From an uncultured Isosphaeraceae bacterium (GTDB lineage: Bacteria; Planctomycetota; Phycisphaerae; Phycisphaerales; SM1A02), in the NCBI GenBank assembly GCA_964623715.1, contig CAZURP010000004.1, positions 1 to 24,193 of the forward strand: a stretch of DNA of 24,193 nucleotides, in the 5' to 3' direction. Positions 1,078-13,444 of this stretch are shown here, piece by piece (position 1 is the first letter of the stretch; each line of letters begins with the position of its first letter). Under the pieces are notes generated by a model. That model made no database searches and was not told the origin of the DNA. It saw nothing but the letters and a program-made list of their open reading frames with translations. The position numbers were made by a program, and so were the translations under genes.

Positions 1078-1872
1078 ATGACGAACGAAACACACAACTA
1101 TAATCAACTCCTTGAACTCGCTGTTCTTGAAGCACATGGTTTGCTTGATCCAATCGAATCCGATTTGTTCACTCGTTCGTTCCACGATGCACCAGTATCG
1201 ATTCAAGAAGAAATTATCCGTATGCAAGAAGCATTTGCGGTGGATACTTCGTTCTTGCCTGATGAGAATCCACCAGCAGAACTTCGCAAGCGCGTACTTC
1301 AGGCAGTTGCAGATACTGCTGATCAAGAAGCCCAGCGACTCGCTCCTTTGGCGCTCATTGGTGCAAGAGCAAGTGCAGCACAAACACAGTACGGCTCATC
1401 GAAAAACATTACTCTGTGGCGAACTGCCGCTGTTGTCTTGTTTGGTGTTGCTGTCGTGCTTGCGGTTATTACACTCGATACACAACGTAAAGCAAATCGC
1501 AGCGCACAACTTGCGCTGAACAGTGCAACGAATACCGCACTGAATGAATTAGTCGGTCACAAATTCAGCGAATTTGTCGGCAACCCATACTGCCAAGTTA
1601 CTCGGCTTGAACGTGCGAGTGGCGACTCCGCTGGCTATCTGCGAATTGCCCTCAACGAACGATTTGGAAATGGATTCGTCATGGGTATCGACCTTGAAGA
1701 CGGTGAAGAAATCATCATCCAGGGTACTACAACTGACGGCACTGTTATCGAACTTGCTCGGCTTACAGCAGACGGCCCGATTGTTGGTCAGGACTTTGAA
1801 ATCGACACTGCGCTTATCAGAGGCATGACAATTACTGCCCTCGACGCAAACACCGGCAAACGCTGGGTGTAA
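1078..1872 (+). CDS. Membrane-anchored anti-sigma factor (RskA-like organisation)
   Basis: Directly downstream of the ECF sigma. N-terminal LLELAVLEAHGLLDPIE resembles anti-sigma N-termini, followed by PPAELRKRVL, one TM helix (WRTAAVVLFGVAVVLAVITL) and a predicted extracytoplasmic C-terminal domain. Confidence 0.78.
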   Translation: MTNETHNYNQLLELAVLEAHGLLDPIESDLFTRSFHDAPVSIQEEIIRMQEAFAVDTSFLPDENPPAELRKRVLQAVADTADQEAQRLAPLALIGARASAAQTQYGSSKNITLWRTAAVVLFGVAVVLAVITLDTQRKANRSAQLALNSATNTALNELVGHKFSEFVGNPYCQVTRLERASGDSAGYLRIALNERFGNGFVMGIDLEDGEEIIIQGTTTDGTVIELARLTADGPIVGQDFEIDTALIRGMTITALDANTGKRWV

Positions 1873-1898: not shown

Positions 1899-1923
1899 AA
1901 ACGACCCCGCGGGTCGTTTTTTT
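1899..1923 (+). terminator. Rho-independent terminator of the sigma/anti-sigma operon; also copy 1 of a 19-bp palindromic repeat
   Basis: AAACGACCC-CGC-GGGTCGTTT (1899-1919), with a T7 tract at 1917-1923, 26 nt after the anti-sigma stop. Confidence 0.85.
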
Positions 1924-1950
1924 ATACACCTTTGCTTTGGCTAACTGACG

Positions 1951-2143
1951 AAAAAATCGCCGTGCGACGCACACACAGAAGGTGAGCTCAAACCCAGTAC
2001 CAGAAGGTGGGTTCGAATGCCATCATTCCAAGTCGTCCACTTCAGCGTTGCTTTGAGGCATGACTGTCGATGCGGCTTCATACGATCCCTGAGGGTTCGA
2101 TAGGATCGAGCACATACACACTGCGTGTACATCGCACGGCGAC
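1951..2143 (-). ncRNA. ssrS: 6S RNA-like structured ncRNA (~190 nt)
   Basis: On the minus strand, 2143-2121 pairs with 1978-1956 as an uninterrupted 23-bp stem (19 Watson-Crick, 4 G-U), ending in a U tract. The wobble pairs work only on this strand. Internally UCGAACCC (2100-2093) pairs with GGGUUUGA (1995-1988); GAAGCC (2079-2074), GGCAU (2021-2017) and CCCACCU (2011-2005) fall in the order expected around a 6S central bubble. Length fits 6S RNA. Confidence 0.8.
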
Positions 2144-2161
2144 TCGTTTGGTCGCCACTCG

Positions 2162-2190
2162 TACAATACCATGCTCACCATGTATCGCAA
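2162..2190. promoter_or_regulatory. Putative bidirectional sigma-70 promoter for the 6S-like RNA (-) and the MFS gene (+)
   Basis: Minus strand: TTGCGA (2190-2185), 16-nt spacer ending TGG, then TATTGT (2168-2163). Plus strand: TACAAT (2162-2167) overlaps the same bases. Confidence 0.55.
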
Positions 2191-2199
2191 GGATATTTT

Positions 2200-3468
2200 T
2201 TGAAAACCCCATCCAAAGCTCAACACGCTCGTGAACTTATTGCATGGGCATTTTTGCCTATGATGATGGGCGCCATTGAAGGCGGAGTCGTTGGCGTTCT
2301 CACAAAAAGAATGTTTGAAGGCGTTGTCGAACAGACAATACTTGACTGGTCTGTCGCCGCCCTTGCGGCAGCACAAGGTTTTGCGAGCATTTCAAGTTTT
2401 CTATGGGCTGCACTTAGCCACGGCAAACATAAAATTCGTTTTATCACAACCTTAAAAATAGCGTGCGTACTACTTGTTGGAACCGTTTCATTCGTTCCAC
2501 AAACGGCGCTCGGTCTCGCGATGTTGTTGTTCTGTGTCATCGGAACAAGGGTGTGTTACACGGGCATTGTCACATTACGGACAACCGTCTGGCAAGCAAA
2601 TTACCCTCGCACGAATCGTGCGTTCGTTGCTGGAAGAATTGCAACGGTGCAAGCGCTCGTGCTAGCAAGTGTTAGTTTTGGTGTTGGGGAGGCAATGGAC
2701 CTCAACGAAAACGCTATTCGATGGGTCTATCCAGTTGCTGCAAGTTTTGGCGTGCTGGGTGCTTGGATTTACAGCAAAATTCGAGTCCAAGGGCATAAAG
2801 AACTTTTGTCAGAGGAAAAAAGTTCGCCACACCATGTTTCATTTTTGCCTTGGAACACTTTCAAGTTGCTCTTTGAAGATAGTGCGTTCGCAAAATATAT
2901 GGGATGCCAGTTTGTCTTTGGTGTTGGAAACTTAATGCTGACCGCCCCGCTTGTCATCGTGCTCAGCGATCAGTTCGACCTTGGATACCTCGGCGAGATA
3001 ATGATTGTTTCAACCATCCCAATTCTCATGATTCCATTGAGCACCCTTTTTTGGGCGAAACTCCTCGACAAAATGCACGTGTTGTCATTCCGGTCAATTC
3101 ACAGTTGGTTCTTCGTTGTTTCTTCGCTCTGCATTGGCATCAGTATTGCAACACATTCAGTTGCTGGTCTATGGATTGGTGCTGGGATTCGCGGAATTGG
3201 TTTTGGCGGTGGCGTACTCGCTTGGAATCTGGGACACCAAGATTATGCACCCCTCGAACAGTCAAGTCGGTATATGGGTCTGCACGTCACATTGACAGGA
3301 ATTCGTGGTCTTCTCGCACCCGCGTTTGGCATGGCTATTTATACCTTCTTACACAAGAGCGGGTATCAGGCTGGGCCTTTTGTGTTCTACGTTGGGGCTT
3401 TTCTCTCTGCAATCGGTGGAATCGGCTTCATTTTGCTCGCAAAAGCACGTATATCCAACAAAATGTAG
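2200..3468 (+). CDS. MFS transporter
   Basis: About 12 hydrophobic segments in two halves separated by a hydrophilic loop (KIRVQGHKELLSEEKSSPHH); WAKLLDKMH and YMGLHVTLTGIRG are MFS-like. The ORF-track GTG at 2125 lies inside the RNA closing stem; in-frame TTG at 2200 has AAGGA (2189-2193) 6 nt upstream. Confidence 0.85.
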   Translation: MKTPSKAQHARELIAWAFLPMMMGAIEGGVVGVLTKRMFEGVVEQTILDWSVAALAAAQGFASISSFLWAALSHGKHKIRFITTLKIACVLLVGTVSFVPQTALGLAMLLFCVIGTRVCYTGIVTLRTTVWQANYPRTNRAFVAGRIATVQALVLASVSFGVGEAMDLNENAIRWVYPVAASFGVLGAWIYSKIRVQGHKELLSEEKSSPHHVSFLPWNTFKLLFEDSAFAKYMGCQFVFGVGNLMLTAPLVIVLSDQFDLGYLGEIMIVSTIPILMIPLSTLFWAKLLDKMHVLSFRSIHSWFFVVSSLCIGISIATHSVAGLWIGAGIRGIGFGGGVLAWNLGHQDYAPLEQSSRYMGLHVTLTGIRGLLAPAFGMAIYTFLHKSGYQAGPFVFYVGAFLSAIGGIGFILLAKARISNKM

Positions 3469-3497
3469 TTCCAATTATCGTTTTATTTTGGTAATAT
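3469..3497 (+). promoter_or_regulatory. Putative sigma-70 promoter for rpsA
   Basis: TTCCAA (3469-3474), 17-nt spacer ending TGG (extended -10), TAATAT (3492-3497). Confidence 0.4.
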
Positions 3498-3639
3498 GCA
3501 CGGCTCGCCTGTCCTTTCAGCAGGCATGTGAACCCCCGCTGTTTCTCTCTTATTGCGCAATGTGTGCATGGAACCAACGGCTCACACAAGCAACCACGAC
3601 AGCGACCACGTGGCCAAGATTGAAATGTCGCAAACCCAC

Positions 3640-5394
3640 ATGGTAGATTACAATTTGATCGCGGATATCGGAATCGATTTCGACGAAGTCGATGCAATGA
3701 TTTCAGCCTCCCTAGGCGAAGAAGTTGCTGGCGGAAACATGGATACACTTATTTCGAGTGAAATCCAACAGTTCGTTCCTGGAAATATGCTCAAGGGGAA
3801 AATCGGCGGTAAAGCTGGTGATGATGCTGTCATCGACGTTGGCCTAAAATCCGAAGGTCTTATTCACAAGAGTGAGTTTGACGATTGGGATTCGCTCGAG
3901 TCCGGTATTGAAATCGAAGTCATCCTCGAAGATCTCGAAGATGAAAACGGCATCATTAAACTCTCCAAGCGAAAAGCCGACCGCATTCGCAACTGGGAAA
4001 AAGTTCTCGAAACATACAACGAAGGTGACATCGTTGAAGGCAAAGGCATTCGCCGAATCAAAGGTGGCATTCTTGTTGACATAGGCGTCCCTGCGTTCCT
4101 CCCTGCATCCCAAATCGACGTTCGACGACCTGGTGATGTCAATGAATTCCTTGGCAAAACAATTCGTGCTGAAATTCTCAAAATTGATGAGCCACGACGA
4201 AACATCGTCGTCAGCCGCCGAACACTCATCGAGAGTGAACGCGATGAAGCGAAGCAACGCCTACTCAACACAATCAACGAAGGCGATGTCATCATTGGCA
4301 AAGTAACGAATGTTGCTGAGTTTGGTGCGTTTATTGACCTTGGTGGAATTGATGGTCTACTCCACGTCACTGACATGAGTTGGGGACGAATCAAACACCC
4401 AAGCGATATGTGCAAAACTGGTGATGAGCTTGAAGTGAAGGTTCTTAAAGTAGACTTCGACACTGAAAAAATTGCACTCGGTCTGAAGCAGAAAGAGGCA
4501 TCACCCTGGGACGATATCGAAGGTCGCTTCCCCGTGCAAACACGCGTTACTGGCAAAGTTGTCAACCTCGTCAGTTACGGAGCCTTTGTGCACCTTGAAG
4601 ATGGTGTCGAAGGGCTTGTTCATGATTCAGAAATGTCATGGCGCAAACGAATTAACCACCCAAGCGAAGTCGTATCACCTGGAGATGAGATCGACGTAGT
4701 CGTGCTTGACATCGATAAGGACAAGCACGAAATTTCGCTTGGCATGAAGCAAGTCGAATCCAATCCGTGGGAAATCGTTGCTGAGAAATATCCAATCGGA
4801 ACTATCGTTTCCGGTGCCGTGCGAAACCTTACAAACTACGGTGCATTCGTAGAAATCGAACCTGGCATCGATGGTTTGTTGCATGTAAGTGACATTTCAT
4901 GGACAGAAAAGATTGCGCATCCAAACGAGAAATACAAGAAGAACGACGAAGTCGAATGCATGGTGCTTGAAATTGATCAAGAAAAACAACGCATCTCACT
5001 TGGCATGAAACAAATGCACGAAGATCCATGGCAAAACGCAATTCCAGAAGCGTACAAGCCTGGCATGGTTGTGCACGGCACTGTTACCAAGATTACAAAC
5101 TTCGGTGTATTTGTTGAACTTGAAGATGGACTTGAAGGATTGCTTCACATCTCCGAACTTGCTGACAAGAAGGTGGATAGCCCACAAGACATTGTCAAAG
5201 CAGGCGAAGAAGTCAATGTGAAAATTCTCAGAGTAGACCTCGATGATCGTAAAATAGGTCTATCACTCAAGCGTGCATTGTCTGGCGAAGACATTGAAGA
5301 AAACTGGGAAGCACATGTTCCAAAGAGTGACTCGCCAGAACGTGGTGGCATGGATGATCACGGTGCACTTGGTACCGACAAAATCGAACTGTAA
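3640..5394 (+). CDS. rpsA: 30S ribosomal protein S1
   Basis: Six S1 repeats (DVGLKSEG, AFLPASQID, FGAFIDLGGIDGLLHVTDMSW, YGAFVHLEDGVEGLVH, YGAFVEIEPGIDGLLHVSDISW, FGVFVELEDGLEGLLHISEL). The ORF is open from 3553; ATG at 3640 (MVDYNLI) is preferred by resemblance to planctomycete S1 N-termini, but the start is uncertain. Confidence 0.97.
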   Translation: MVDYNLIADIGIDFDEVDAMISASLGEEVAGGNMDTLISSEIQQFVPGNMLKGKIGGKAGDDAVIDVGLKSEGLIHKSEFDDWDSLESGIEIEVILEDLEDENGIIKLSKRKADRIRNWEKVLETYNEGDIVEGKGIRRIKGGILVDIGVPAFLPASQIDVRRPGDVNEFLGKTIRAEILKIDEPRRNIVVSRRTLIESERDEAKQRLLNTINEGDVIIGKVTNVAEFGAFIDLGGIDGLLHVTDMSWGRIKHPSDMCKTGDELEVKVLKVDFDTEKIALGLKQKEASPWDDIEGRFPVQTRVTGKVVNLVSYGAFVHLEDGVEGLVHDSEMSWRKRINHPSEVVSPGDEIDVVVLDIDKDKHEISLGMKQVESNPWEIVAEKYPIGTIVSGAVRNLTNYGAFVEIEPGIDGLLHVSDISWTEKIAHPNEKYKKNDEVECMVLEIDQEKQRISLGMKQMHEDPWQNAIPEAYKPGMVVHGTVTKITNFGVFVELEDGLEGLLHISELADKKVDSPQDIVKAGEEVNVKILRVDLDDRKIGLSLKRALSGEDIEENWEAHVPKSDSPERGGMDDHGALGTDKIEL

Positions 5395-5413
5395 ACACAG
5401 TTCTCTGTAATAC

Positions 5414-5460
5414 AAAAGTGGGGGGCCGTTTTCATTTGAACGGGGCCGCTTTTCTTCTCT
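5414..5460 (+). terminator. Possible imperfect terminator after rpsA
   Basis: AAAAGTGG/CCGCTTTT outer stem and CCGTT/AACGG inner stem with an internal loop, followed by a pyrimidine run. Confidence 0.35.
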
Positions 5461-5683
5461 CTTCTCCATGCATCTCGTGATGCCAAAGTCAGCATAGCGC
5501 TAAAAATGTAAGGACGGTCAAAAGGACTACTTTTCGCCTATGTCGCGTCATCTCTGTTGCATGCTTCAGCACTCGCATCTCTCGTAAAGAACCTCTTCTC
5601 TTCATTTCGTTCGCTTTGTCTCTCGGACACCGCTATCATGCACGAACTTTCTTGCAATGCAAGTGTAAATGTGTATTTTCTTT

Positions 5684-7396
5684 ATGAGCAACACTCCCTT
5701 ACTACGTTTTTTTGCCTTTCTTGCCCTTTTCGGTTCAGTCTGTGCGGATTATGCCTTTGCAGAAGCACCCACTTTTCAGGATGTTGAACGAGCGGTGGTC
5801 GCCCTTCGAGGGTGGATACAAGATGATTTACATGTCCCAGAGGATTCCTCAATCGCTCTTCCTGCTGAAACCTCTGTCTGCGTAATTTTGCGGCACCACG
5901 GGCAGGTTCTTGGTGTGGGCGTCGCACACGGACAGGATAAAGGCCCTCTTGAGGAAGCAGCAACCGCAGCATTCGCAGAAACAAATCGTGATAAGACGTT
6001 CGCGAAACTTTCCTCTGCATTCAAAGCAATCGCCAGCAATTCGATTTCGATTGAGGTGGAACTCGGTGGTAAACCAATTCCATCGCCAAGTAAAAACTAC
6101 GCACGTTTTTCACACAAAATACGTCCGGGTGTTGATGGTATCGCTGCGCGCAGAAATAACCAGTGGGATATACGCTTACCCGCAGCTTTGCGATTATCAC
6201 CACGAAGAAAAATATCAAGTGTGCTTGCTTCTGTTTGCTTAAACGTAGGCGTACACCCAGCCATTGCGATTTCTGGTGAGTTGCCACAAGGCGAAGACGT
6301 GACTCTTTATTCCATTCCAACAGTCACTGGTTTCCAAAAAGAAACTGGAGCGAAAGTTGCCCTACTTATTCGCGGGGATGAGCTTGTAGCAGATATATGC
6401 ACACTGGAAACAATTACCTCACTTGCAAACATCCTTGCGAAACACCTCATTGTGTGCACAAGCGAAACAGGCACCGTCATCGGACGGTACCAGCCGGAAA
6501 CTGATTCATTCTCTTCGCCGATTGCATCTCCCTTTGTTCAGCTCATGGTCGCAAGTGCGTTGGAAGAATACGCTTCGCTTCAAACAAGTTCCTTTCGGGA
6601 GAATGCTCGATCAACTGCTTCGAACATCATCGGCGATGTCGAGAAGAAGTATTACGACCACGAGGCAATCCCAATTGAAGTTGCCGCGAGCACTGTGCTT
6701 CTTCTCGCTTCAAGTCCAGCCCCTTGGAGCAATGAAATACTACAATTTATGCACGCGTGCAAAGAGACTGTATTGCGTGTTACTGGGGAGACTGTACAGA
6801 GTGAAGCCCTTTCTGAACCACCACATATTTATGCAATTCTTGCTCAGGCAATGAGCGAAATTGCAACGAATGCAGCTAATCCAAAAGTACAAAAACTTGC
6901 AGAAAGTCTTTGCCTGCTCTGCATCGAAAACATTCCATTGGAATCGAAGGTTTCAACTATTCCTTGGTTGTTTGACGCAGTCGCACTACTGAATGCAAAC
7001 GGTAGTAGGCTTCCTACTGAAACCATGGATGAATTACTGAACATCGCACTTGCATCCCAAGTCACAGCAACCAAAGAGCCCGAGTTAGCTGGCGGGTTTT
7101 TACTCACAAGCGATGATGGTCTCGTTGCTGATGCCCGAGGACTACGAATGGTCCAAATGCTTGCAAAATCTGAATCAATACTTGCAAAAGAAGCACTTCT
7201 TGAAGCGCTTCGTTTTGCAATCCAACTCACAACAAGCGACGAAAGAGCAAACCGTTTTCAGGCACCCTCCTTTGCACTCGGTGGAGTTCGCGCCTCTATG
7301 TGGGACGCAGCAATGCCCACTGAAGCAACGGCAATGACGTTACTTGGTGTAGTGCAGGCAATTAAAGCGATGCAATCCTGTACGCCTTCAAAATGA
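5684..7396 (+). CDS. Exported protein with an N-terminal AMMECR1-like domain and a helical C-terminal domain
   Basis: Signal-like N-terminus (MSNTPLLRFFAFLALFGSVCADYAFA). SVCVILRHHGQVLGVG, PLEEAATAAFAET, ISIEVEL and IRPGVDGIAARR..LPA follow the AMMECR1 motif order. The C-terminal half is helix-rich with GGF and ALGGVRASMWD. ORF track starts at 5669. Confidence 0.6.
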   Translation: MSNTPLLRFFAFLALFGSVCADYAFAEAPTFQDVERAVVALRGWIQDDLHVPEDSSIALPAETSVCVILRHHGQVLGVGVAHGQDKGPLEEAATAAFAETNRDKTFAKLSSAFKAIASNSISIEVELGGKPIPSPSKNYARFSHKIRPGVDGIAARRNNQWDIRLPAALRLSPRRKISSVLASVCLNVGVHPAIAISGELPQGEDVTLYSIPTVTGFQKETGAKVALLIRGDELVADICTLETITSLANILAKHLIVCTSETGTVIGRYQPETDSFSSPIASPFVQLMVASALEEYASLQTSSFRENARSTASNIIGDVEKKYYDHEAIPIEVAASTVLLLASSPAPWSNEILQFMHACKETVLRVTGETVQSEALSEPPHIYAILAQAMSEIATNAANPKVQKLAESLCLLCIENIPLESKVSTIPWLFDAVALLNANGSRLPTETMDELLNIALASQVTATKEPELAGGFLLTSDDGLVADARGLRMVQMLAKSESILAKEALLEALRFAIQLTTSDERANRFQAPSFALGGVRASMWDAAMPTEATAMTLLGVVQAIKAMQSCTPSK

Positions 7397-7400
7397 TGCG

Positions 7401-7415
7401 TATACTTCATCTATG
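7401..7415 (+). promoter_or_regulatory. Leaderless-type start: -10 hexamer 6 nt upstream of ATG
   Basis: TATACT (7401-7406), TCATCT, ATG (7413); no Shine-Dalgarno sequence in the 16-nt intergenic gap. Confidence 0.5.
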
Positions 7416-8129
7416 AAATTCATTGTCACTATTATTCTTGGTTTTATCCTTGGGAACCCAGATGCTGACAACCTTGGTACGCTCGTCTACAACGACGTGT
7501 CTCTTCAGATCGAAGATGTGGCATCAGAACAAGTCGTAGATTCATTTGGGAATGATCTCAACCTGCTATTGAAAGTTTATTGGAAAACAAAAAACCAAGA
7601 CGGATGCGACAGAGCAAAAAAAGTTTCATTACTACTGCGCAACCAACCCGCAATCATTGTGCTTGAACGAATCGCAACCCAATTGGGAACCGATGAAAGC
7701 GACGCAACTTGGCAACTTCGAGATGGTGTTGTGGAAATTGGACTAAAAAACCAACTCGCAAAAAGACAATTTCAACGTCTCGTTACATACCCTATTATGG
7801 ATCTTCTCTTTGTTGTAAATGATTTTAGTTTCCTTGAACAAAACAATGGAAGAACCGCGCCCGAATCTACCGAGCAACGGCAAGCACGCATCGACGAACT
7901 AATAGAAAAAATATCCAAGCTAATTGAACCAGATGTCTGGGCACAAAACGGGGGGCCTTGCACTATCGCCAATTACAAAGAAACTTTGCTTGTTCGAGCA
8001 CCTAATTTTGTCCACCGCCAAATTGGCGGGTATGCATTCGTGCCGACGAAACCACAAGGTGCTTCGCCCCGCGAACTCCAAGTTAATCGCAACCGCACAT
8101 CTGTCAAAATTAAATACCCGCGAGATTAA
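7413..8129 (+). CDS. Exported protein with a secretin N-domain-like repeat and no secretin beta-barrel
   Basis: Hydrophobic N-terminus (MKFIVTIILGFILG). YPIMDLLF..DELIEKISKLIEPDVWAQNGG..IANYKETLLVRAPNFVHRQI matches the pattern common in planctomycete secretin-like proteins. Confidence 0.55.
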   Translation: MKFIVTIILGFILGNPDADNLGTLVYNDVSLQIEDVASEQVVDSFGNDLNLLLKVYWKTKNQDGCDRAKKVSLLLRNQPAIIVLERIATQLGTDESDATWQLRDGVVEIGLKNQLAKRQFQRLVTYPIMDLLFVVNDFSFLEQNNGRTAPESTEQRQARIDELIEKISKLIEPDVWAQNGGPCTIANYKETLLVRAPNFVHRQIGGYAFVPTKPQGASPRELQVNRNRTSVKIKYPRD

Positions 8130-8150
8130 TGACCCGCGGGGTTGTTAATC
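8124..8150. repeat. Copy 2 of the 19-bp palindrome (17/19, minus orientation) within a 12-bp hairpin at a convergent gene junction
   Basis: Minus strand 8146-8128 reads AACAACCCCGCGGGTCATT. On the plus strand GATTAATGACCC-GCG-GGGTTGTTAATC pairs fully with two G-U pairs. It covers both stop codons (8127-8129 on +, 8128-8126 on -). Confidence 0.7.
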
Positions 8151-10156
8151 CAGTGGTTTAACCAAGCACGGTCCCATTCTATTTTTGCTTTTCGGTGCGA
8201 AAGTTTAGATAAGCCGTGCCCAGTGCCAGGGTAGATAACAAGTTGGGTTGGAACTTCAAGATAATCATGCAATGCACGGAACAATGCTTTTGATTGCTCA
8301 GCCGGTACACGGGCATCTCCTGCACCGACGTGGATAATAGTCGGAGTTGTGATGTTGTCCGCTTCAAAGAGCGGTGACATTCGGTTTAACTCTTCTGCAA
8401 CTTCCCACGGTAAACCCTCCGCGTAATTCACAACGTGCCCGGGCGTGTCTTCAATAGACCATTGCATTGTTTGCTCAAAGACACCTGCGCCACTACTCGC
8501 AGCTTTAAAACGATCCGTTTCCGCAATGAGGCAGTTCGTTAAATAACCACCATTACTCCAACCGCCAACCGTGAGTTTGTCTGGGTCTGCAATTCTACGA
8601 GCGACCATCTCATCAACGCCAGCAAGAATGTCTGATACTTCGATATCGTTTTCCTTGCCAACCAAGTCCGTGATAAACGTATCGCCGTATCCAGTTGACC
8701 CACGGTAGTTCGGGCTAAAGACAGCCCAACCATCGCTCGAATAAAGCCCCCTGCCATACATCGAAAACTCCAAGGCTTTTGTCACCGCAGAGGTGGGTCC
8801 ACCATGCAGGTGTACGTACATTGGAAGTGGCGGATCACTGTTCAATTTATATCCATGGGGCAACTCAAGAACACCCTCTATCACCGTGCCGTCCTTTCCC
8901 TTCCACCGTACGATTTCTATGCTCGGTAGTTTCCAATTCGCTACATGGCTGTTTGGATTGGCAAGAACAATTCCAGAGTTTGCATCTTTAACACGAACGA
9001 CTGCCGTCAGCGTATCTTGCGAACCCACAAGTGCAACACATTCGTCGGTATTTCTCGCTATCGTAAAATCCCAACAGAGTATGCCATTTGAAAAAACTTC
9101 TGTTGTGTCGCCTTGCGTGCCATTTCCGACATTTGCAATTCGCAAGAGGGGACGAATTGTTCCGCGTTCAGCGATGTAGAGAAGGTCATTTGTTTTTGGA
9201 GCCCAAACAGGAGAGGTGCCAAGCGTATCGTTTTGAACTCTATTCACTTTTTGTATTACTGTCGTATCGCTATCAAAAGTTGCAACAAACATATTCCTTG
9301 GGAACCCATCAAAATCCACTGAGAACGCCAAACGAGAACCGTCGGAAGACCACTCCGGTGATTCCACCCAACCGTACGGCGATGGTGCTTCTTTGCGCCA
9401 AAGTGTGTCATCTAGGAGCGTAGTTTCTTTACTCGAAAGATCGTACACGCCAAGTTCAGACCATCCTTCGTTCGTTATTAATCTCGTGTCAGGAGTCGTA
9501 ATGATTGCTATTTTTGTACCATCTGGAGTTGGCGTAAAATACTGAATCACCCTATCCTCGTCCCAGAGTTGTGTGTGCTTCCACGTAACAACGTCGAGTT
9601 TCCATAACTCTGAATAATCAACGAGACCGTGCCCATATTCTATGTCATCGTGGTCTTTACGAAGATCTTTCCACTGGTCATCTATCTGTTCTTCATCACT
9701 AACAACGTAATACACCCTCCTGCCGTCATAGCTCAGTGACCAATCTTCTACTCCACCCTCGAGCCGAGTGACTGCCATCAGTTGCGAACCATCTGGTTTT
9801 ATTCTCCAAACTTGCTTCTTTCCGTTACGAGGCAAGTCGTCACCCTTGCTTCCCCTGCGAGACGAAAAATACAACCAATTGTCATTTGCGCCCCACTGAA
9901 GAGAGCCATCGTATGCTTCATCGAATGTCAAGCGAAGTGGTGTCGCGTTTGGAACATTTGTTTCCACAACCCAAATATCCGTGTTTCGTTTATCAAGTTC
10001 TTCATCCCATCGCCCTTCTGTCCACGCGGTATAGGTACCGTCTGGCGAGATTGCACAACTCGAAAGATACGACAATGAAAAATAATCGTCTGTTGTAATT
10101 GACGATTTGTTTTCAGTTGCTTGTAGTGAAAATGCTAAAAGTGCAATTGCATACAT
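8126..10156 (-). CDS. S9 family serine peptidase (prolyl oligopeptidase / acylaminoacyl peptidase-like)
   Basis: N-terminal beta-propeller repeats (ISPDG, PTPDG, WSSDG). LHGGP, PNYRGSTGYG, catalytic GWSNGG, GAGDARVP (Asp) and GTGHGL (His). AAGGA Shine-Dalgarno upstream. Confidence 0.93.
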   Translation of the reverse strand: MYAIALLAFSLQATENKSSITTDDYFSLSYLSSCAISPDGTYTAWTEGRWDEELDKRNTDIWVVETNVPNATPLRLTFDEAYDGSLQWGANDNWLYFSSRRGSKGDDLPRNGKKQVWRIKPDGSQLMAVTRLEGGVEDWSLSYDGRRVYYVVSDEEQIDDQWKDLRKDHDDIEYGHGLVDYSELWKLDVVTWKHTQLWDEDRVIQYFTPTPDGTKIAIITTPDTRLITNEGWSELGVYDLSSKETTLLDDTLWRKEAPSPYGWVESPEWSSDGSRLAFSVDFDGFPRNMFVATFDSDTTVIQKVNRVQNDTLGTSPVWAPKTNDLLYIAERGTIRPLLRIANVGNGTQGDTTEVFSNGILCWDFTIARNTDECVALVGSQDTLTAVVRVKDANSGIVLANPNSHVANWKLPSIEIVRWKGKDGTVIEGVLELPHGYKLNSDPPLPMYVHLHGGPTSAVTKALEFSMYGRGLYSSDGWAVFSPNYRGSTGYGDTFITDLVGKENDIEVSDILAGVDEMVARRIADPDKLTVGGWSNGGYLTNCLIAETDRFKAASSGAGVFEQTMQWSIEDTPGHVVNYAEGLPWEVAEELNRMSPLFEADNITTPTIIHVGAGDARVPAEQSKALFRALHDYLEVPTQLVIYPGTGHGLSKLSHRKAKIEWDRAWLNHWINNPAGH

Positions 10157-10171
10157 AGAATATTCCTTCTA

Positions 10172-11500
10172 TCAATCGTGACGCAATGCAACGATTGGAT
10201 CTTGTCTACTTGCGATTATTGCCGGGTAGATTCCAAAAACGAGCCCAGTCCCTGCTGCGACTAAAAATGAAACGACAATTGACCATCCAGTAATTCGGGT
10301 TTCGAGCCCAACACCTACGTCTCCAATACTACTAAACATAGAGAAACTTAACATCCAAGGCAAGAACGATTCAAGCCCAACAGATATTCCGACACCGAGC
10401 CCAATGCCAATTAGACCTCCCACGCAACTTAAACTTCCTGTTTCGATGAGGAACTGAATTGCAATATCACTTCGTGAAGCGCCGACTGCCCTGCGGATGC
10501 CTATCTCTCTTGTCCGTTCAACAACAGTTGCAAGCATAATGTTCATAATGCCAATGCCCCCAACAAGCAGACTAATTGCCGCAATTGCAGTCAGCAAAAT
10601 ATTCATAGTGGCTGTTGTTCGACGTACATTTTCCAACAATTCCCAAGGGACGATAATTTCAACATCCTTCAGTTTTGGGTGACCCACTTTCATAACGTTG
10701 CGAATATGTTCAGCCATTGGTACGACTGCGTCGGTAGTAGGAGCGGTTAAATAGATTTCTGAAATTTCTACTTCCTCGCCACTGAAAGAACCCGATTGTC
10801 TCCGAACAACCACATCGCCAAACTCGAGTTTTGCCGTCGTCAGCGGTATGTGGACATCTTTATTTAAATCACGCCCGACCAGTGCAGAACCAGCACCTCC
10901 CGCCAATCCGACTGGTTTAAGTACGCCAATAATCGTGAACACTCTTGTGTCGATTCGCAAAATCTGACCAACTGGGTCGGAAAGTGGGAAAAACAACTTC
11001 TCAATCTCAGACCCAATGACGGCGACAGGCGCTCTTCGCTCAAGGTCTTCCGCAACTAAATAACGCCCGCCACGCTTTACTCGAAGGTTCGCAGCTGCCC
11101 GTAAGGCGGGGATTGTTCCAAATGTTTGGCTCGTCGTTCTAGATGCGCCTCTGGAAACTTCAGAGCCAACTGATTTCAGTGGAATAATTGTGTCTGCTGG
11201 TATGAACGTTTCTAGTCTCTTCAAATCCTCGGCGGTCATACCAAACTTTGCAACAAACGATCTGCGTTGCGAACCAACCGATTGTGATTCTGGTGGACGT
11301 TGCGACCGGACAATGATGTTTGTTGCACCCAGCGACTGAATCGCACGTAGAGCACTTTGTTTGTTGCCCTCTCCAATAGAAACCATCACAATGACTGAGG
11401 CGACGCCAAGAATAATGCCCAGACTTGTCAGCAGAGAGCGCAACGCATGCAAGCGTAAACTCTTCATGCCAAGTAAAAATGTTTCAATGGATATATTCAT
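10172..11500 (-). CDS. ABC transporter permease, MacB/FtsX family
   Basis: RSLLTSLGIILGVASVIVMVSIGEG, a periplasmic domain, then ISLLVGGIGIMNIMLATVVERTREIGIRRAVGA and GLVFGIYPAIIASRQDPIVALR. No ATPase domain. Confidence 0.93.
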   Translation of the reverse strand: MNISIETFLLGMKSLRLHALRSLLTSLGIILGVASVIVMVSIGEGNKQSALRAIQSLGATNIIVRSQRPPESQSVGSQRRSFVAKFGMTAEDLKRLETFIPADTIIPLKSVGSEVSRGASRTTSQTFGTIPALRAAANLRVKRGGRYLVAEDLERRAPVAVIGSEIEKLFFPLSDPVGQILRIDTRVFTIIGVLKPVGLAGGAGSALVGRDLNKDVHIPLTTAKLEFGDVVVRRQSGSFSGEEVEISEIYLTAPTTDAVVPMAEHIRNVMKVGHPKLKDVEIIVPWELLENVRRTTATMNILLTAIAAISLLVGGIGIMNIMLATVVERTREIGIRRAVGASRSDIAIQFLIETGSLSCVGGLIGIGLGVGISVGLESFLPWMLSFSMFSSIGDVGVGLETRITGWSIVVSFLVAAGTGLVFGIYPAIIASRQDPIVALRHD

Positions 11501-13068
11501 TCTGGCATCAATGGTTGGGTGGTTTCGGAAGCAAAATCTTCTGGAATATCAACGTAAAAAGATGCACCTTGACCGTGCGTTGATTTCACACCCAAGTGAG
11601 CATGAAGGAGTTCGGCGAGCTCTCTGCAAATCGCAAGACCTAAGCCAGTGCCAGAGTGTTCCTTTGTGTGCGTTGCGTCCACTTGTCTAAATTTTTCGAA
11701 CACCATTTCGAGCATATCCTCAGGTATTCCCGGTCCCTTATCAGAAATCATGATTCTCACCGATGACGGTGAACCATGTTCGTGTATTTTCGTTGCCGAA
11801 ATTGTGACAACAGAGTTTGCCGGAGAAAATTTAATGGCATTCGAAAGGAAGTTATACAAAATTTGTTGTAGCTTGCCTGGATCGGTTTGAATTGACGGCA
11901 AACTAGTTGCCACCTGCAAGTCTAGAACGAGCCCTTTTACCTTTGATTGCGGACGCATAATACTTGCGAGCCCCTCAAGCAAATCCTGCACGCTTGTTGG
12001 TTCTGGATTCACTTCCATCCTGCCTGATTCTATTTTTGCCATATCAAGAAGTTCATTTATCATGTCAAGCAACGACCGACCGCTTGTAAGAATATTTCGT
12101 AAATATCGAACTCGTTTTTCCTGGTCTTTCTCGGTTTCGATTGGCATTCCTTCAAGTAATTCTGCAAAACCGATAATCGAATTTAGTGGCGTTCGGAGTT
12201 CGTGGCTCACGTTTGCGATGAATGCATTCTTTAATCTTCCAGATTCAAACAAACCAATATTTACTTCTGCAAGTTCTTCCACTTTTAAATCCAGAGACGC
12301 ATTCATCTTTTGAAGTCGGAACTGACCCTGCTCCATCCTGTCAAGCATTTCATTAAATGCATTCGAGAGTTCTTCAAATTCATCCCCCGTTTGCAACGAT
12401 GATCTCGCCGTTAAATCTCCATCTTGAACTCGTTCCGTTACTCGGCGTAATCTTCGCACGGGCGAAAAAATTAATCGGTGAAAAATAAAATAATACACAA
12501 GAACTGAAATCAAACTCCCAACGATGCCAGCGATAATAATCAACGCTCTTGTATCGCCAAGTTGTTCTTTTGCAAATGTTGATTTTCTTCGGATTATCAA
12601 AATTGCCTCAAGTGGATCTGAAACGCTCGGTGCATTCACCCCAGAACCAAAGTCCGTCACGCCCTCTTTTCTAATCGAACCTGTTTGGGATTTGGTTATT
12701 GGTTTTGCATACTGAAAATAATTATGTTGGTCTCGATCGTAAGGAGCGTAAAACTCATCGACTGCGCCTTCGTTTTTCTCAAACGCTGCGAGAGCGCGGT
12801 CTACAAATGTATTTCCGCTTCTGTCAATTTCATCTATACGGACAAGGTGAATATTGACATCCTCGCCCTCAAAAACTTCTGCCTTCACCTGAGAATTTAT
12901 CCAAACATCTGCTAACTGTCTTGCAACTTCTAACTGATATTCTTGGACGACCGCGGAAGAACTCATCCAAAGAACCGCTAAAAGGGATGTGATAATGATG
13001 ACATTCGCAGTGCCAAAAATTGCGAGGCATTTGTTTGCTAAGCTAACGCGCTTTCCCATTCGTACCAT
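11497..13068 (-). CDS. Membrane sensor histidine kinase (2 TM, HAMP, HisKA, HATPase_c)
   Basis: Two TM helices flanking a ~140-aa extracytoplasmic domain; HAMP (PVRRLRRVTERVQDGDL..GDEFEELSNAFNEM); H box SHELRTPL; N box NFLSNAIKF; DKGPGIP; GTGLGL. No receiver domain. Alternative start at ATG 13059. Confidence 0.95.
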   Translation of the reverse strand: MVRMGKRVSLANKCLAIFGTANVIIITSLLAVLWMSSSAVVQEYQLEVARQLADVWINSQVKAEVFEGEDVNIHLVRIDEIDRSGNTFVDRALAAFEKNEGAVDEFYAPYDRDQHNYFQYAKPITKSQTGSIRKEGVTDFGSGVNAPSVSDPLEAILIIRRKSTFAKEQLGDTRALIIIAGIVGSLISVLVYYFIFHRLIFSPVRRLRRVTERVQDGDLTARSSLQTGDEFEELSNAFNEMLDRMEQGQFRLQKMNASLDLKVEELAEVNIGLFESGRLKNAFIANVSHELRTPLNSIIGFAELLEGMPIETEKDQEKRVRYLRNILTSGRSLLDMINELLDMAKIESGRMEVNPEPTSVQDLLEGLASIMRPQSKVKGLVLDLQVATSLPSIQTDPGKLQQILYNFLSNAIKFSPANSVVTISATKIHEHGSPSSVRIMISDKGPGIPEDMLEMVFEKFRQVDATHTKEHSGTGLGLAICRELAELLHAHLGVKSTHGQGASFYVDIPEDFASETTQPLMPE

Positions 13069-13071
13069 GAT

Positions 13072-13090
13072 AACGACCCCGCGGGTCGTT
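13072..13090. repeat. Copy 3 of the 19-bp palindrome (identical to 1900-1918)
   Basis: AACGACCCCGCGGGTCGTT in the 37-nt gap between the zinc-finger stop and the kinase start. Confidence 0.9.
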
Positions 13091-13105
13091 TATGGTTCCG
13101 ATCGA

Positions 13106-13444
13106 TTATGGTTTTTGCCAGTCCCACTGTTTTGATTTATTCAACACTGCGGACGCGTGTTTGGTGGCGCGGGTACAAATAGGGGCGATAGGCTGAACAG
13201 CTCCAAACCACACAGGATCATCGCGATGTTCAAGACACATTCTGCATGTACCCTCTGTTGGAGCACCGGCGCCAGCGAGCACGAGTTCTGTATACGCCAC
13301 CGTCAAACAATTACCGCACACAATGCTCCCTTGGTGCCCTTCAACACACGGGACATCGTTTGCCCACGCAGTATTGCCACAAAAGTCGCAAAGAATATCT
13401 TCTGGCTGAACGTTGTTATCGTCAATACCTTCTCGGTGCATCAA
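13106..13444 (-). CDS. Small Cys-rich protein with ClpX C4-type-like zinc finger and a second, degenerate finger
   Basis: CDFC..EGHQGSIVCGNC resembles the ClpX-type C4 finger; the second unit is CRMC..ICTRA. Start overlaps the trmB stop (ATGA). Confidence 0.65.
   Translation of the reverse strand: MMHREGIDDNNVQPEDILCDFCGNTAWANDVPCVEGHQGSIVCGNCLTVAYTELVLAGAGAPTEGTCRMCLEHRDDPVWFGAVQPIAPICTRATKHASAVLNKSKQWDWQKP

What the first reader, a model, noticed from the sequence alone, without database searches (positions are those of the whole stretch)
1900..13090. A 19-bp palindrome (AACGACCC-CGC-GGGTCGTT) occurs three times in three different roles
Seen: identical copies at 1900-1918 and 13072-13090, and a 17/19 copy on the minus strand at 8146-8128. 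The contexts are a terminator with T tract, a protein-coding 3' end, and a position immediately before a start codon with no T tract. Independent terminators do not normally share stem and loop sequence. Inference: a dispersed lineage-specific element (REP-like unit, protein-binding site or RNA-processing signal) at high density, possibly undescribed. No cognate transposase is present in the window.
Basis: partly seen in the sequence, partly recalled or inferred. Interest (0 to 1): 0.68.

Follow-up and report, generated by a model that had tools for sequence, protein, structure and literature searches.

The report
REP hairpin repeats with a RAYT partner
The repeated 19-base palindrome belongs to a family of small hairpin-forming repeats (REP elements) spread through the genomes of a group of marine Phycisphaerae bacteria and paired with a dedicated transposase-like gene elsewhere in the genome; this kind of element is known, but had not been reported for this lineage in the papers searched.

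Summary
AACGACCCCGCGGGTCGTT occurs exactly at 1900-1918 and 13072-13090, with a 17/19 copy on the minus strand at 8146-8128; 0.01 matches are expected by chance.

It is not three coincidentally similar terminators. It is a member of a dispersed hairpin family in a clade of marine Phycisphaerae MAGs with 43-48% GC. The consensus is aaATA-AAC[A/G]ACCC-CGC-GGGT[Y]GTT-TATt.

- One relative, MAG binchicken_co141_521 (about 2.1 Mb), holds about 70 copies. Other relatives hold 1-6.
- Outer stems covary.
- Copies sit at gene 3' ends, mostly between convergent genes, and often share the TAA stop codon.
- A single-copy Y1 (HUH) transposase is flanked by inverted copies of the hairpin. Its best matches are REP-associated tyrosine transposases (NCBIfam NF047646, PDB 4ER8). 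It lies in a conserved thiG-RAYT-phosphomannomutase locus.
- One allele, P0005, comes from exactly the three metagenome samples that hold the window. It is flanked by a 21-mer that matches the window's repeat at 19 of 21 positions.

Terminator or mRNA-stabiliser function is inferred, not shown. Novelty: a new member of a known kind. It lacks the GTAG/CGTC tag and has a 3-nt loop.

The parts
1899..1919 (+). REP copy 1: AAACGACCC-CGC-GGGTCGTTT, a 9-bp perfect stem with a 3-nt loop. It lies 27 nt after the stop of the anti-sigma ORF and runs into a T tract (1917-1925).
   Evidence: RNA fold -13.6 kcal/mol, z = -3.3. Conserved 21/21 at the orthologous site of MAG MED703 (L015) and in L137, while the flanking intergenic DNA has diverged.
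8124..8150 (-). REP copy 2: on the minus strand AACAACCC-CGC-GGGTCATT (8146-8128), one mismatch from the family master AACAACCCCGCGGGTCGTT. As + strand RNA it forms a 12-bp stem with two G-U pairs. It overlaps the stop of ORF 7413-8129 (+) and encodes NNPAGH* of the S9 peptidase ORF 8126-10156 (-).
   Evidence: At the orthologous site, MED703 (L015) and L137 carry a different hairpin, ATCTACC-GTG-GGTAGAT, and a longer C-terminus.
8107..8140 (-). Alternative minus-strand hairpin CCCGCGGG-(8 nt)-CTCGCGGG followed by UAUUUAAUUU. This is the likely terminator of the S9 peptidase transcript and uses part of copy 2.
   Evidence: Terminator-like scan (first row) and minus-strand MFE fold.
13064..13096 (-). 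REP copy 3: core AACGACCC-CGC-GGGTCGTT at 13072-13090, with an outer helix ACCAU/AUGGU that pairs the first AUG (13068-13066) of the histidine kinase ORF. It lies between the 111-aa ORF (stop 13106) and the kinase gene.
   Evidence: Folds of -22 kcal/mol on both strands. Conserved in MED703 (L128) with loop TGC and the same outer helix.
1078..1872 (+). Anti-sigma-like ORF whose 3' end is followed by copy 1. It lies downstream of the ECF sigma factor ORF 415-1020.
7413..8129 (+). 238-aa ORF of unknown function. Its TAA stop overlaps copy 2.
8126..10156 (-). S9 family peptidase ORF. Its last six codons and stop are supplied by copy 2.
11497..13068 (-). Sensor histidine kinase ORF (start at 13068 or 13059), immediately downstream of copy 3.
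13106..13444 (-). 111/112-aa ORF whose stop lies 15 nt upstream, in the direction of transcription, of copy 3.

Best explanation
The palindrome is a REP (repetitive extragenic palindrome) element of a marine Phycisphaerae clade. It is a roughly 27-nt hairpin-forming repeat with consensus ATAAAC[A/G]ACCC-CGC-GGGT[Y]GTTTAT.

Its copies descend from, and co-evolve with, a single-copy REP-associated tyrosine transposase (RAYT). That gene sits between thiG and a phosphomannomutase gene and is itself bracketed by inverted copies of the hairpin.

Proposed mechanism, inferred by analogy with characterised RAYTs and IS200/IS605 TnpA: the HUH/Tyr enzyme binds the folded hairpin on single-stranded DNA, then cuts and rejoins next to it. 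This seeds new copies in places where they do little harm, namely just after or overlapping TAA stop codons, between convergent genes, and in intercistronic gaps.

Once in place, the stable GC-rich stem with A/T-rich shoulders probably acts as a terminator (often bidirectional) or as an mRNA 3'-end protector. That would explain why old copies (1 and 3) are kept at orthologous sites in a relative with about 80% nucleotide identity.

The three 'roles' in the window are three ordinary landing contexts of one element.

Shown: the repeat family, its lineage restriction, stem covariation, its position relative to genes, and the RAYT flanked by inverted copies.
Inferred: RAYT-driven copying, terminator or stabiliser activity, and that RAYT allele P0005 belongs to the window's own genome.
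For: **Family and copy number**
- A scan of 185,579 species genomes with AAYRACCCCGCGGGTYRTT returned 111 loci. About 70 matches lie in one roughly 2.1-Mb MAG (CAYYRP01, binchicken_co141_521), and 1-6 lie in each of nine other 43-48% GC Phycisphaerae-type MAGs.
- In total there are 104 unique lineage copies with a consensus that extends beyond the 19-mer.

**Copies are related by descent**
- The asymmetric form AACAACCC..GGGTCGTT occurs 26 times, against 2 for its mirror form, so the element has a polarity.

**Hairpin constraint**
- The outer stems differ between sites but stay complementary. Seven pairs show changes on both sides, the covariation score is 0.22 against 0.083 in shuffles (0/500 reach it), and slid controls are lower.
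- Species-specific variants differ by paired transitions (C3-G17 to T-A, G4-C16 to A-T).

**RAYT**
- L309 ORF 1246-1995 (-) matches Pfam Y1_Tnp at 47.3 bits (gathering score 23). It matches NCBIfam REP-associated tyrosine transposase at 62 bits, against 18 bits for IS200.
- HUH and Tyr are invariant in 10 homologues. The profile's best PDB hit is 4ER8 TnpA-REP, E = 5.9e-8.
- The gene is flanked by two copies on each side in opposite orientation.
- The same thiS-thiG-RAYT-PMM synteny holds in 30 loci carrying five RAYT alleles (P0004, P0005, P0007, P0009, P0010), and each allele is flanked by its own stem variant.

**Link to the window**
- P0005 occurs only in JGI 3300008954, ERZ23498677 and ERZ23498660. 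These are the samples where window proteins were found.
- It is flanked by AAACAATCCCGCGGGTCGTTT, 19/21 identical to the window's repeat.

**Position relative to genes**
- Of 108 unique copies, 40 are convergent, 29 co-directional and 5 divergent.
- 26 gene ends share the last A of TAA with the first base of the element.

**Age of the window copies**
- Copies 1 and 3 are conserved in MED703.
- The copy 2 site holds a different hairpin there.
Against: - The window's own genome is not in the searchable genome collection, so its copy number is unknown. Only 3 copies were seen in 40 kb of contiguous sequence, and none besides the RAYT-flanking three in 20 kb of the P0005 contig.
- Assignment of P0005 to the window's genome rests on sample co-occurrence, GC content and repeat similarity. 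The tetranucleotide correlation of 0.95 is not discriminating.
- The RAYT homologues score below NCBIfam's curated cut-off (58-69 bits against 80) and carry a C-terminal extension of about 90 aa that is absent from E. coli RAYT.
- No unpaired GTAG or CGTC tag is present.
- Doublets are mostly tandem duplications rather than classic inverted REPINs.
- No transcript data could be found, so termination or stabilisation is untested.
- Copies 2 (+ strand) and 3 lack a U tract.
- Asymmetric copies show no preference for the G-U-pairing strand being transcribed.
Confidence: 0.82

Rival explanations
1. The copies are independent, ordinary intrinsic terminators that happen to share a good stem. The similarity is convergence, and the stems are conserved only because any terminator stem is.
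For: The stem AACGACCC/GGGTCGTT with all kinds of loops is used downstream of genes in many unrelated taxa, including Pseudoalteromonas, Clostridia and Alphaproteobacteria. Copy 1 has a canonical T tract. Most lineage copies sit at gene 3' ends.
Against: - Within the lineage the loop is almost always CGC/GCG.
- The same asymmetric mismatch (A4 with C16) recurs 26 times in one polarity.
- About 70 copies occur in one 2.1-Mb MAG.
- The same hairpin brackets a RAYT gene in inverted orientation.
- Other strong terminator-like hairpins in the same DNA are all different from one another.
Confidence: 0.03
2. The palindrome is a double-stranded DNA binding site for a dimeric protein, such as an operator or a chromosome-organising protein of the parS, matS or NBS kind. 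It is conserved for that reason and clustered in this region.
For: The architecture is an 8-3-8 perfect inverted repeat. Relatives carry few copies per genome (1-6). Three copies lie within 11 kb of the window. Copy 3 abuts a promoter-proximal or start region.
Against: - The flanks outside the conserved core covary to extend the stem, which is expected for a folded single strand and not for a duplex site.
- Copies avoid divergent (promoter) regions: 5 of 74 classified.
- Stem variants change by paired transitions between species.
- A RAYT is flanked by the motif.
Confidence: 0.05
3. It is a miniature non-autonomous element of a DDE transposon that duplicates TA (IS630/Tc1-like), or an excision footprint of one. 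This would explain the frequent TA...TA flanks.
For: In 104 copies, position -2/-1 is T (57 of 104) / A (92 of 104), and position +20/+21 is T (94 of 104) / A (60 of 104).
Against: - 19-27 nt is far below any described MITE.
- The TA flanks are largely explained by overlapping TAA/TTA stop codons of convergent genes.
- No DDE transposase is associated in about 1 Mb of lineage loci examined by motif. The gene consistently bracketed by the repeat is a Y1 transposase.
Confidence: 0.04
4. It is a DNA-uptake-sequence-like signal that, as in Neisseria or Haemophilus, is often arranged as inverted pairs forming terminators.
For: A conserved sequence in terminator-like hairpins at gene ends is what DUS/USS pairs look like.
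Against: Isolated half-sites are barely enriched: 44 observed against about 24 expected in 389 kb, compared with 69 full hairpins. There are none in the window outside the three hairpins. No competence link was found.
Confidence: 0.02

Closest known systems
REP/REPIN-RAYT systems of Gammaproteobacteria (E. coli REP with TnpA-REP/YafM, PDB 4ER8; Pseudomonas fluorescens REPINs; Bertels & Rainey 2011, PMC3116915; Di Nocera et al. 2013, PMC3733652)
   Same: - Short hairpin repeats dispersed in extragenic space.
- A single-copy Y1/HUH transposase bracketed by inverted copies of the repeat.
- The RAYT sits at a fixed syntenic locus, implying vertical inheritance.
- Species-specific repeat variants track RAYT alleles.
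- Copy number differs greatly between related genomes.
- Copies lie at gene 3' ends and between convergent genes.
   Different: - No unpaired GTAG or CGTC tag.
- The loop is only 3 nt, and many copies are perfect 27-31-nt palindromes.
- Copies very often overlap the TAA stop codon or even supply C-terminal codons.
- Doublets are mostly tandem duplications rather than inverted REPINs.
- The RAYT is 207-249 aa, with a conserved extension of about 90 aa, and scores below NCBIfam's cut-off for the family.
- The host is Planctomycetota (Phycisphaerae).
IS200/IS605 family (IS608, ISDra2) TnpA and their subterminal hairpins
   Same: A Y1 HUH transposase fold. The enzyme recognises folded hairpins in single-stranded DNA next to a short cleavage motif.
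   Different: Here the hairpins are dispersed alone in many copies without the gene, and the gene is single-copy at a conserved locus. The IS200 model scores far lower than the RAYT model (18-27 bits against 58-69).
Bidirectional intrinsic terminators between convergent genes
   Same: A GC-rich stem with an A-rich 5' shoulder and a T-rich 3' shoulder, positioned within a few nucleotides of both stop codons.
   Different: Ordinary terminators do not share stem, loop and mismatch polarity across scores of loci, and they are not found bracketing a transposase gene.
Rickettsia palindromic elements (RPE)
   Same: Palindromic repeats that can lie inside the ends of coding regions and contribute residues to proteins. 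Here these are NNPAGH* in the S9 peptidase and NNPAGRLF* in the RAYT.
   Different: RPEs are 100-150 bp and insert in-frame within genes. The present element is about 27 nt and only reaches into the last few codons.

Membership tests
REP/RAYT (REPtron) system | A short (20-40 bp) palindromic repeat present in many copies, mainly extragenic. | tested here: met
   There are 104 unique lineage copies. 69 full hairpins lie in 389 kb of loci from one roughly 2.1-Mb MAG. 69 of the 74 classifiable sites are convergent or co-directional intergenic. For the window's own genome only 3 copies in 40 kb could be seen.
REP/RAYT (REPtron) system | A RAYT gene flanked by copies of the repeat in inverted orientation. 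| tested here: met
   L309: copies at 1187 and 1224 (+), and at 2035 and 2072 (-), around ORF 1246-1995. L353: copies at 9917 (+), 10670 (+) and 10708 (-) around RAYT 10001-10696. L355: the same arrangement. None of these is inside the window.
REP/RAYT (REPtron) system | The protein is a Y1 HUH transposase of the RAYT clade (HUH motif, catalytic Tyr, closer to TnpA-REP than to IS200 TnpA). | tested here: met
   Pfam PF01797 scores 47.3 bits, above the gathering score of 23. NF047646 is the best NCBIfam hit at 58-69 bits, but below its cut-off of 80. 'MPNHxH' and 'NY..NP' are invariant. The best PDB match is 4ER8.
REP/RAYT (REPtron) system | RAYT is single-copy and vertically inherited at a conserved locus. 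| tested here: met
   thiS-thiG-RAYT-PMM-helicase synteny holds in L329-L346 and L353-L360. The cassette is found in both orientations. Single copy per genome was not checked on complete genomes.
REP/RAYT (REPtron) system | Mobility: insertion polymorphism between strains or species. | tested here: inconclusive
   The copy 2 site carries a different hairpin in MED703 and L137, while copies 1 and 3 are shared. Copy number is about 70 in one MAG against 1-6 in others. No clean empty site was seen.
GTAG-/CGTC-tagged REP superfamilies (Di Nocera et al. 2013) | A conserved unpaired GTAG or CGTC tetranucleotide at one end of the stem. | tested here: not met
   The flanking consensus is aaATA...TATt and it pairs. 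There is no GTAG or CGTC. A more distant RAYT clade in the same samples (P0013) is flanked by a GTAG-containing hairpin.
REPIN (Bertels & Rainey) | The replicative unit is two REPs in inverted orientation separated by a short conserved spacer. | tested here: inconclusive
   Twelve doublets spaced 27-41 nt were seen. Most are tandem duplications of REP plus flank, three are inverted, and the spacers are not conserved. All window copies are singlets.
Intrinsic (Rho-independent) terminator | A GC-rich hairpin immediately followed by a U tract on the transcribed strand. | tested here: inconclusive
   Copy 1 meets this. Copy 2 on the + strand and copy 3 on the - strand have no U tract. The minus strand at copy 2 has an alternative hairpin with a U tract.
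Intrinsic (Rho-independent) terminator | Transcript 3' ends map to the hairpin. | not testable with these tools
   Only three small metatranscriptome runs from the same study were found, and none holds this organism.
DNA uptake sequences (DUS/USS) | Strong genome-wide excess of the single, unpaired motif, including inside genes. | tested here: not met
   44 isolated half-sites against about 24 expected, compared with 69 full hairpins. There are none in the window.

The most novel reading that the evidence does not exclude
This may be a distinct, tag-less class of REP. Its RAYT carries a conserved C-terminal extension of about 90 aa and would direct insertion to TAA stop codons or gene 3' ends. 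In these small marine Phycisphaerae genomes the element would then routinely supply stop codons, short C-terminal tails (NNPAG...) and bidirectional terminators. That would make it a domesticated 'terminator dispenser' rather than a merely tolerated selfish repeat.
Probability: 0.15. Interest if true: 0.6.

Novelty: new member of a known kind. Interest (0 to 1): 0.42.

Why it matters
REP/RAYT systems are the best-documented case of a vertically inherited, within-genome replicator in bacteria, but almost all detailed work is on Proteobacteria.

Here is a clean natural series in uncultured marine Phycisphaerae. One conserved RAYT locus carries at least five alleles, and each allele is bracketed by its own hairpin variant. 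Copy number ranges from a handful to about 70 per 2 Mb.

That makes RAYT-REP co-evolution, bursts of amplification, and the exaptation of repeats as terminators or stop-codon donors directly comparable across close relatives.

For annotation, it explains why identical 'terminators' recur, why assemblies of some populations break at this locus, and why some gene ends are encoded by a repeat.

Tried and rejected
- Rfam (gathering thresholds) and tRNA scans of the window found nothing.
- The exact 19-mer is absent from viral contigs.
- An exact 19-mer scan of the genome collection gave only 16 loci, and of the metagenome collection only 20. This first suggested a very low-copy motif. That view was overturned by the degenerate scan.
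It showed only that the bare stem is not lineage-specific.
- Walking along the 104-kb source contig was not possible, because only window-encoded proteins can be looked up. Only 16 kb beyond the window was obtained, with no further copies.
- RNA evidence: no run holds this organism's transcripts.
- Laying reads on a short hairpin-centred stretch to count other loci found only the locus itself.
- Tetranucleotide correlation did not discriminate which RAYT contig belongs to the window's genome.
- Considered and rejected: DUS-like signal, TA-duplicating MITE, and a double-stranded DNA operator. The evidence is given under the rival explanations.
- The Bryobacteraceae hits carrying the same 19-mer are a different, longer repeat with conserved flanks.


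Full report
**Observation.** The 19-mer AACGACCCCGCGGGTCGTT occurs exactly at 1900-1918 and 13072-13090 on the + strand. A copy with two mismatches (AACAACCCCGCGGGTCATT) lies on the minus strand at 8146-8128. Dinucleotide-preserving shuffles give 0.01 matches at up to 3 mismatches.
- Copy 1 follows the anti-sigma-like ORF 1078-1872 by 27 nt and runs into a T tract.
- Copy 2 sits where ORF 7413-8129 (+) and the S9 peptidase ORF 8126-10156 (-) converge. The + gene's TAA is at 8127-8129. The hairpin encodes the peptidase's last residues, NNPAGH, plus its stop.
- Copy 3 lies between the stop (13106) of a 111-aa ORF and the start (13068 or 13059) of a histidine kinase gene, both on the minus strand.

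Rfam and tRNA scans of the window are empty.

**Source and relatives.** The window is part of ENA ERZ23498677 scaffold_596 (81 kb) and overlaps JGI 3300008954 contig Ga0115650_1000398 (104 kb). These are marine metagenomes. The organism is a Phycisphaerae-type planctomycete with 46.7% GC. Its nearest genome in the collection is MAG MED703 (NZFX01), syntenic at about 80% nucleotide identity.
- At the orthologous sites, copy 1 is conserved 21/21 while the surrounding intergenic DNA is unalignable.
- Copy 3 is conserved with one loop change (TGC), together with its outer helix.
- The copy 2 site carries a different hairpin, ATCTACC-GTG-GGTAGAT, and the peptidase ends in INLPTVDKTGY* instead.

**First impression, later corrected.** Exact-match scans gave few hits: 16 in 185,579 species genomes and 20 in the metagenome collection. 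Most came from 43-47% GC Planctomycetota MAGs. A free-loop scan showed that the bare stem AACGACCC/GGGTCGTT is used as a terminator stem in many phyla, with arbitrary loops. In the lineage copies, however, the conserved core is embedded in outer stems that differ from site to site yet remain complementary. Examples are ccgtaAACG...CGTTtacgg and gaataAACG...CGTTtattc. On an alignment of 20 sites, seven pairs show changes on both sides. The covariation score is 0.22 against 0.083 in shuffles (0/500 reach it), and slid-register controls are lower. The sequence is therefore selected, or generated, as a folded hairpin and not as a duplex binding site.

**The family.** I allowed transitions at stem positions 3, 4, 16 and 17 (AAYRACCCCGCGGGTYRTT). 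That scan returned 111 loci.
- 51 loci belong to one roughly 2.1-Mb MAG, CAYYRP01 (binchicken_co141_521; NCBI label 'Isosphaeraceae', but 45-47% GC and clearly of this clade). It holds about 70 copies.
- MED703 and NIOZ-UU88 hold six each. Seven further MAGs hold one or two.
- The 104 unique lineage copies give the consensus aaATA-AACAACCC-CGC-GGGTYGTT-TATt.
- The commonest forms are AACAACCCCGCGGGTTGTT (42 copies), AACAACCCCGCGGGTCGTT (26) and the window's AACGACCCCGCGGGTCGTT (17).
- The asymmetric form occurs 26 times in one polarity and twice in the other. The copies are therefore related by copying, not by convergence.
- Window copy 2 is one substitution away from that asymmetric master.

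**Position relative to genes.** Among 108 unique copies, 40 lie between convergent ORFs, 29 between co-directional ORFs and 5 between divergent ORFs. Another 21 are unclassifiable, and 13 are spanned by a mechanical ORF.
- The distance to the nearest gene 3' end peaks sharply. In 26 cases the last A of TAA is the first A of the 19-mer, and 11 cases lie 3 nt away.
- Twelve doublets spaced 27-41 nt were seen. Most are tandem duplications of the hairpin plus flank, and some are inverted.
- Isolated half-sites are hardly enriched, which argues against an uptake-sequence explanation.

**The transposase.** A motif screen of about 1 Mb of lineage loci found one ORF with HUH and Y..NP motifs: L309 1246-1995 (-), on CAYYRP010000010.1.
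- It matches Pfam Y1_Tnp at 47.3 bits (gathering score 23). Among NCBIfam models it matches REP-associated tyrosine transposase best, at 62 bits (cut-off 80), against 18 bits for IS200.
- It lies between thiG and a phosphomannomutase gene. It is bracketed by two copies of the hairpin on each side, in opposite orientation.
- Twenty-six homologues were found. The ten aligned share invariant MPNHxH and NY..NP motifs. A profile of ten of them hits PDB 4ER8 (E. coli TnpA-REP) best, E = 5.9e-8, ahead of ISDra2 TnpA.
- They are 207-249 aa, about 90 aa longer at the C-terminus than the E. coli enzyme.
- The thiS-thiG-RAYT-PMM-helicase synteny recurs in 30 loci carrying five alleles, with the cassette in either orientation.

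Each allele is bracketed by its own hairpin variant, and all variants share the apex ACC(C)-CGC-(G)GGT:

| RAYT allele | Flanking hairpin |
|---|---|
| L309 | AACAACCC-CGC-GGGTYGTT |
| P0005 | AACAATCC-CGC-GGGTCGTT |
| P0004 | AAT[T/G]ACCC-CGC-GGGTCATT |
| P0007, P0009 | TTAACC-CGC-GGTTAA |
| P0010 | TCACC-CGC-GGTGA |

**Link to the window's genome.** P0005 was found on only three contigs: JGI 3300008954 Ga0115650_1001846, ERZ23498677 scaffold_1875 and ERZ23498660 scaffold_221703. Those are exactly the three samples that hold the window's proteins.
- The contig has 47.9% GC.
- It carries three exact copies of AACAATCCCGCGGGTCGTT around and within the RAYT's 3' end, where the repeat encodes ...NNPAGRLF*.
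- With its flanking A and T, this 21-mer matches the window's at 19 of 21 positions, and the right arm and loop are identical.
- The other two RAYT alleles in these samples have quite different stems.

I therefore think P0005 is the window organism's RAYT.

**Function.** All three window copies fold stably as RNA on both strands (-12 to -22 kcal/mol).
- Copy 1 looks like a canonical terminator.
- At copy 2, the + strand RNA forms a 12-bp stem with two G-U pairs but has no U tract. The minus strand prefers an alternative hairpin, CCCGCGGG...CTCGCGGG, followed by a U-rich tail.
- At copy 3, the outer helix pairs the first AUG of the kinase gene, and this helix is conserved in MED703.
- Asymmetric copies show no bias for the better-pairing strand being the transcribed one. 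This suggests that the polarity is set at the DNA level, by the transposase, rather than by RNA function.
- No transcript data exist for this organism in the runs available.

Terminator or 3'-end stabiliser activity is therefore an inference. It rests on position, structure, conservation at orthologous sites, and what is known for E. coli REPs.

**Comparison with known systems.** The system meets the defining features of a REP/RAYT system: dispersed short palindromes, a RAYT bracketed by inverted copies, HUH/Tyr chemistry, and a conserved single locus. It does not carry the GTAG or CGTC tags of the two superfamilies catalogued by Di Nocera et al. (PMC3733652). That paper lists REPs in the PVC superphylum and notes that untagged families exist elsewhere. 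The present family differs from classic REPs in six ways:
- a 3-nt loop;
- frequent perfect palindromy;
- overlap with stop codons;
- occasional contribution of C-terminal codons;
- few classic inverted REPINs;
- a longer RAYT.

I found no description of this family in the literature searched, but it is a new member of a known kind, not a new kind.

**Verdict.** The cognate transposase lies outside the window. Interest is moderate.

Noticed in passing
window 13157-13195, 3780-3819 and 5419-5423: The window differs from the JGI contig (L017) and from Logan contigs of run X1 by tight clusters of substitutions, for example 8 in 39 nt at 13157-13195. In that cluster the window mostly has G where the other assemblies, and the relative L128, have C, T or A. 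Elsewhere identity is 99.9%. This looks like local assembly or sequencing error, or a recombinant patch, in the window's source scaffold.
   Followed up: partly
window 5765-7393: The 575-aa ORF of unknown function (5669-7396, no Pfam or NCBIfam hit) is absent from the syntenic relatives MED703 (L015) and L137. Their alignment jumps from window 5764 to 7394, so this is a lineage-specific insertion or deletion.
   Followed up: no
L002, L003, L005, L034, L059, L083, L107 (Bryobacteraceae MAG SPRUCE 391); L143, L144, L146: An unrelated 62-64% GC acidobacterial genome carries the same 19-mer (loops CGC or TGC). There it sits inside a much longer dispersed repeat with conserved flanks (...ggcttcagcgcg-19mer-accaagatcggagaactgacgccgggacgtggcgcaggca). 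This is a different repeat family that shares the hairpin by chance or convergence.
   Followed up: no
L347-L352: A second, more distant RAYT clade (P0011, P0013) sits at a different conserved locus, between shikimate kinase and RNase III. It is bracketed by other hairpins, one containing GTAG/CTAC (TTGACCCGTAGTCAA-GTTGACTACGGGTCAA). The same marine communities therefore hold at least two RAYT/REP lineages.
   Followed up: partly
L355-L360 versus L329-L346: The RAYT cassette lies in opposite orientations between the same neighbours (thiG and PMM) in different populations, as expected for inversion between its flanking inverted repeats. All 21 contigs carrying allele P0004 are shorter than 5 kb, which suggests that assemblies break at the repeats.
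   Followed up: partly
L021, L035, L061, L063, L065, L066, L068, L071, L076, L079, L081, L086, L096, L097, L104, L106, L124 (Pseudoalteromonas): Many Pseudoalteromonas genomes carry AACGACCC-AAT/ATT-GGGTCGTT next to a conserved 'cctatagtcaagaa' flank, several times per genome. This may be another dispersed hairpin repeat or a conserved terminator of a repeated gene.
   Followed up: no
L148 57-301: A 115-bp tandem repeat (the AAGTGA-CTG-TCACTT hairpin recurs at 57, 172 and 287) lies next to a family copy in a short metagenome contig.
   Followed up: no
window 1-24193 (gene order): Gene orientation and GC skew switch near 6-8 kb. Genes are on the + strand to the left and the - strand to the right, and skew goes from about 0 to -0.1. 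This may just reflect the convergent operons, or it may be a replichore boundary.
   Followed up: no
run X1, joint 13093 to 1896: One Logan contig, at depth 6.35 (similar to the window's organism), joins a piece ending like copy 3 to a piece starting like copy 1 with 10 nt (TCACCTGCTG) between them. This hints at a tandem doublet of the hairpin at another locus of the same population.
   Followed up: no
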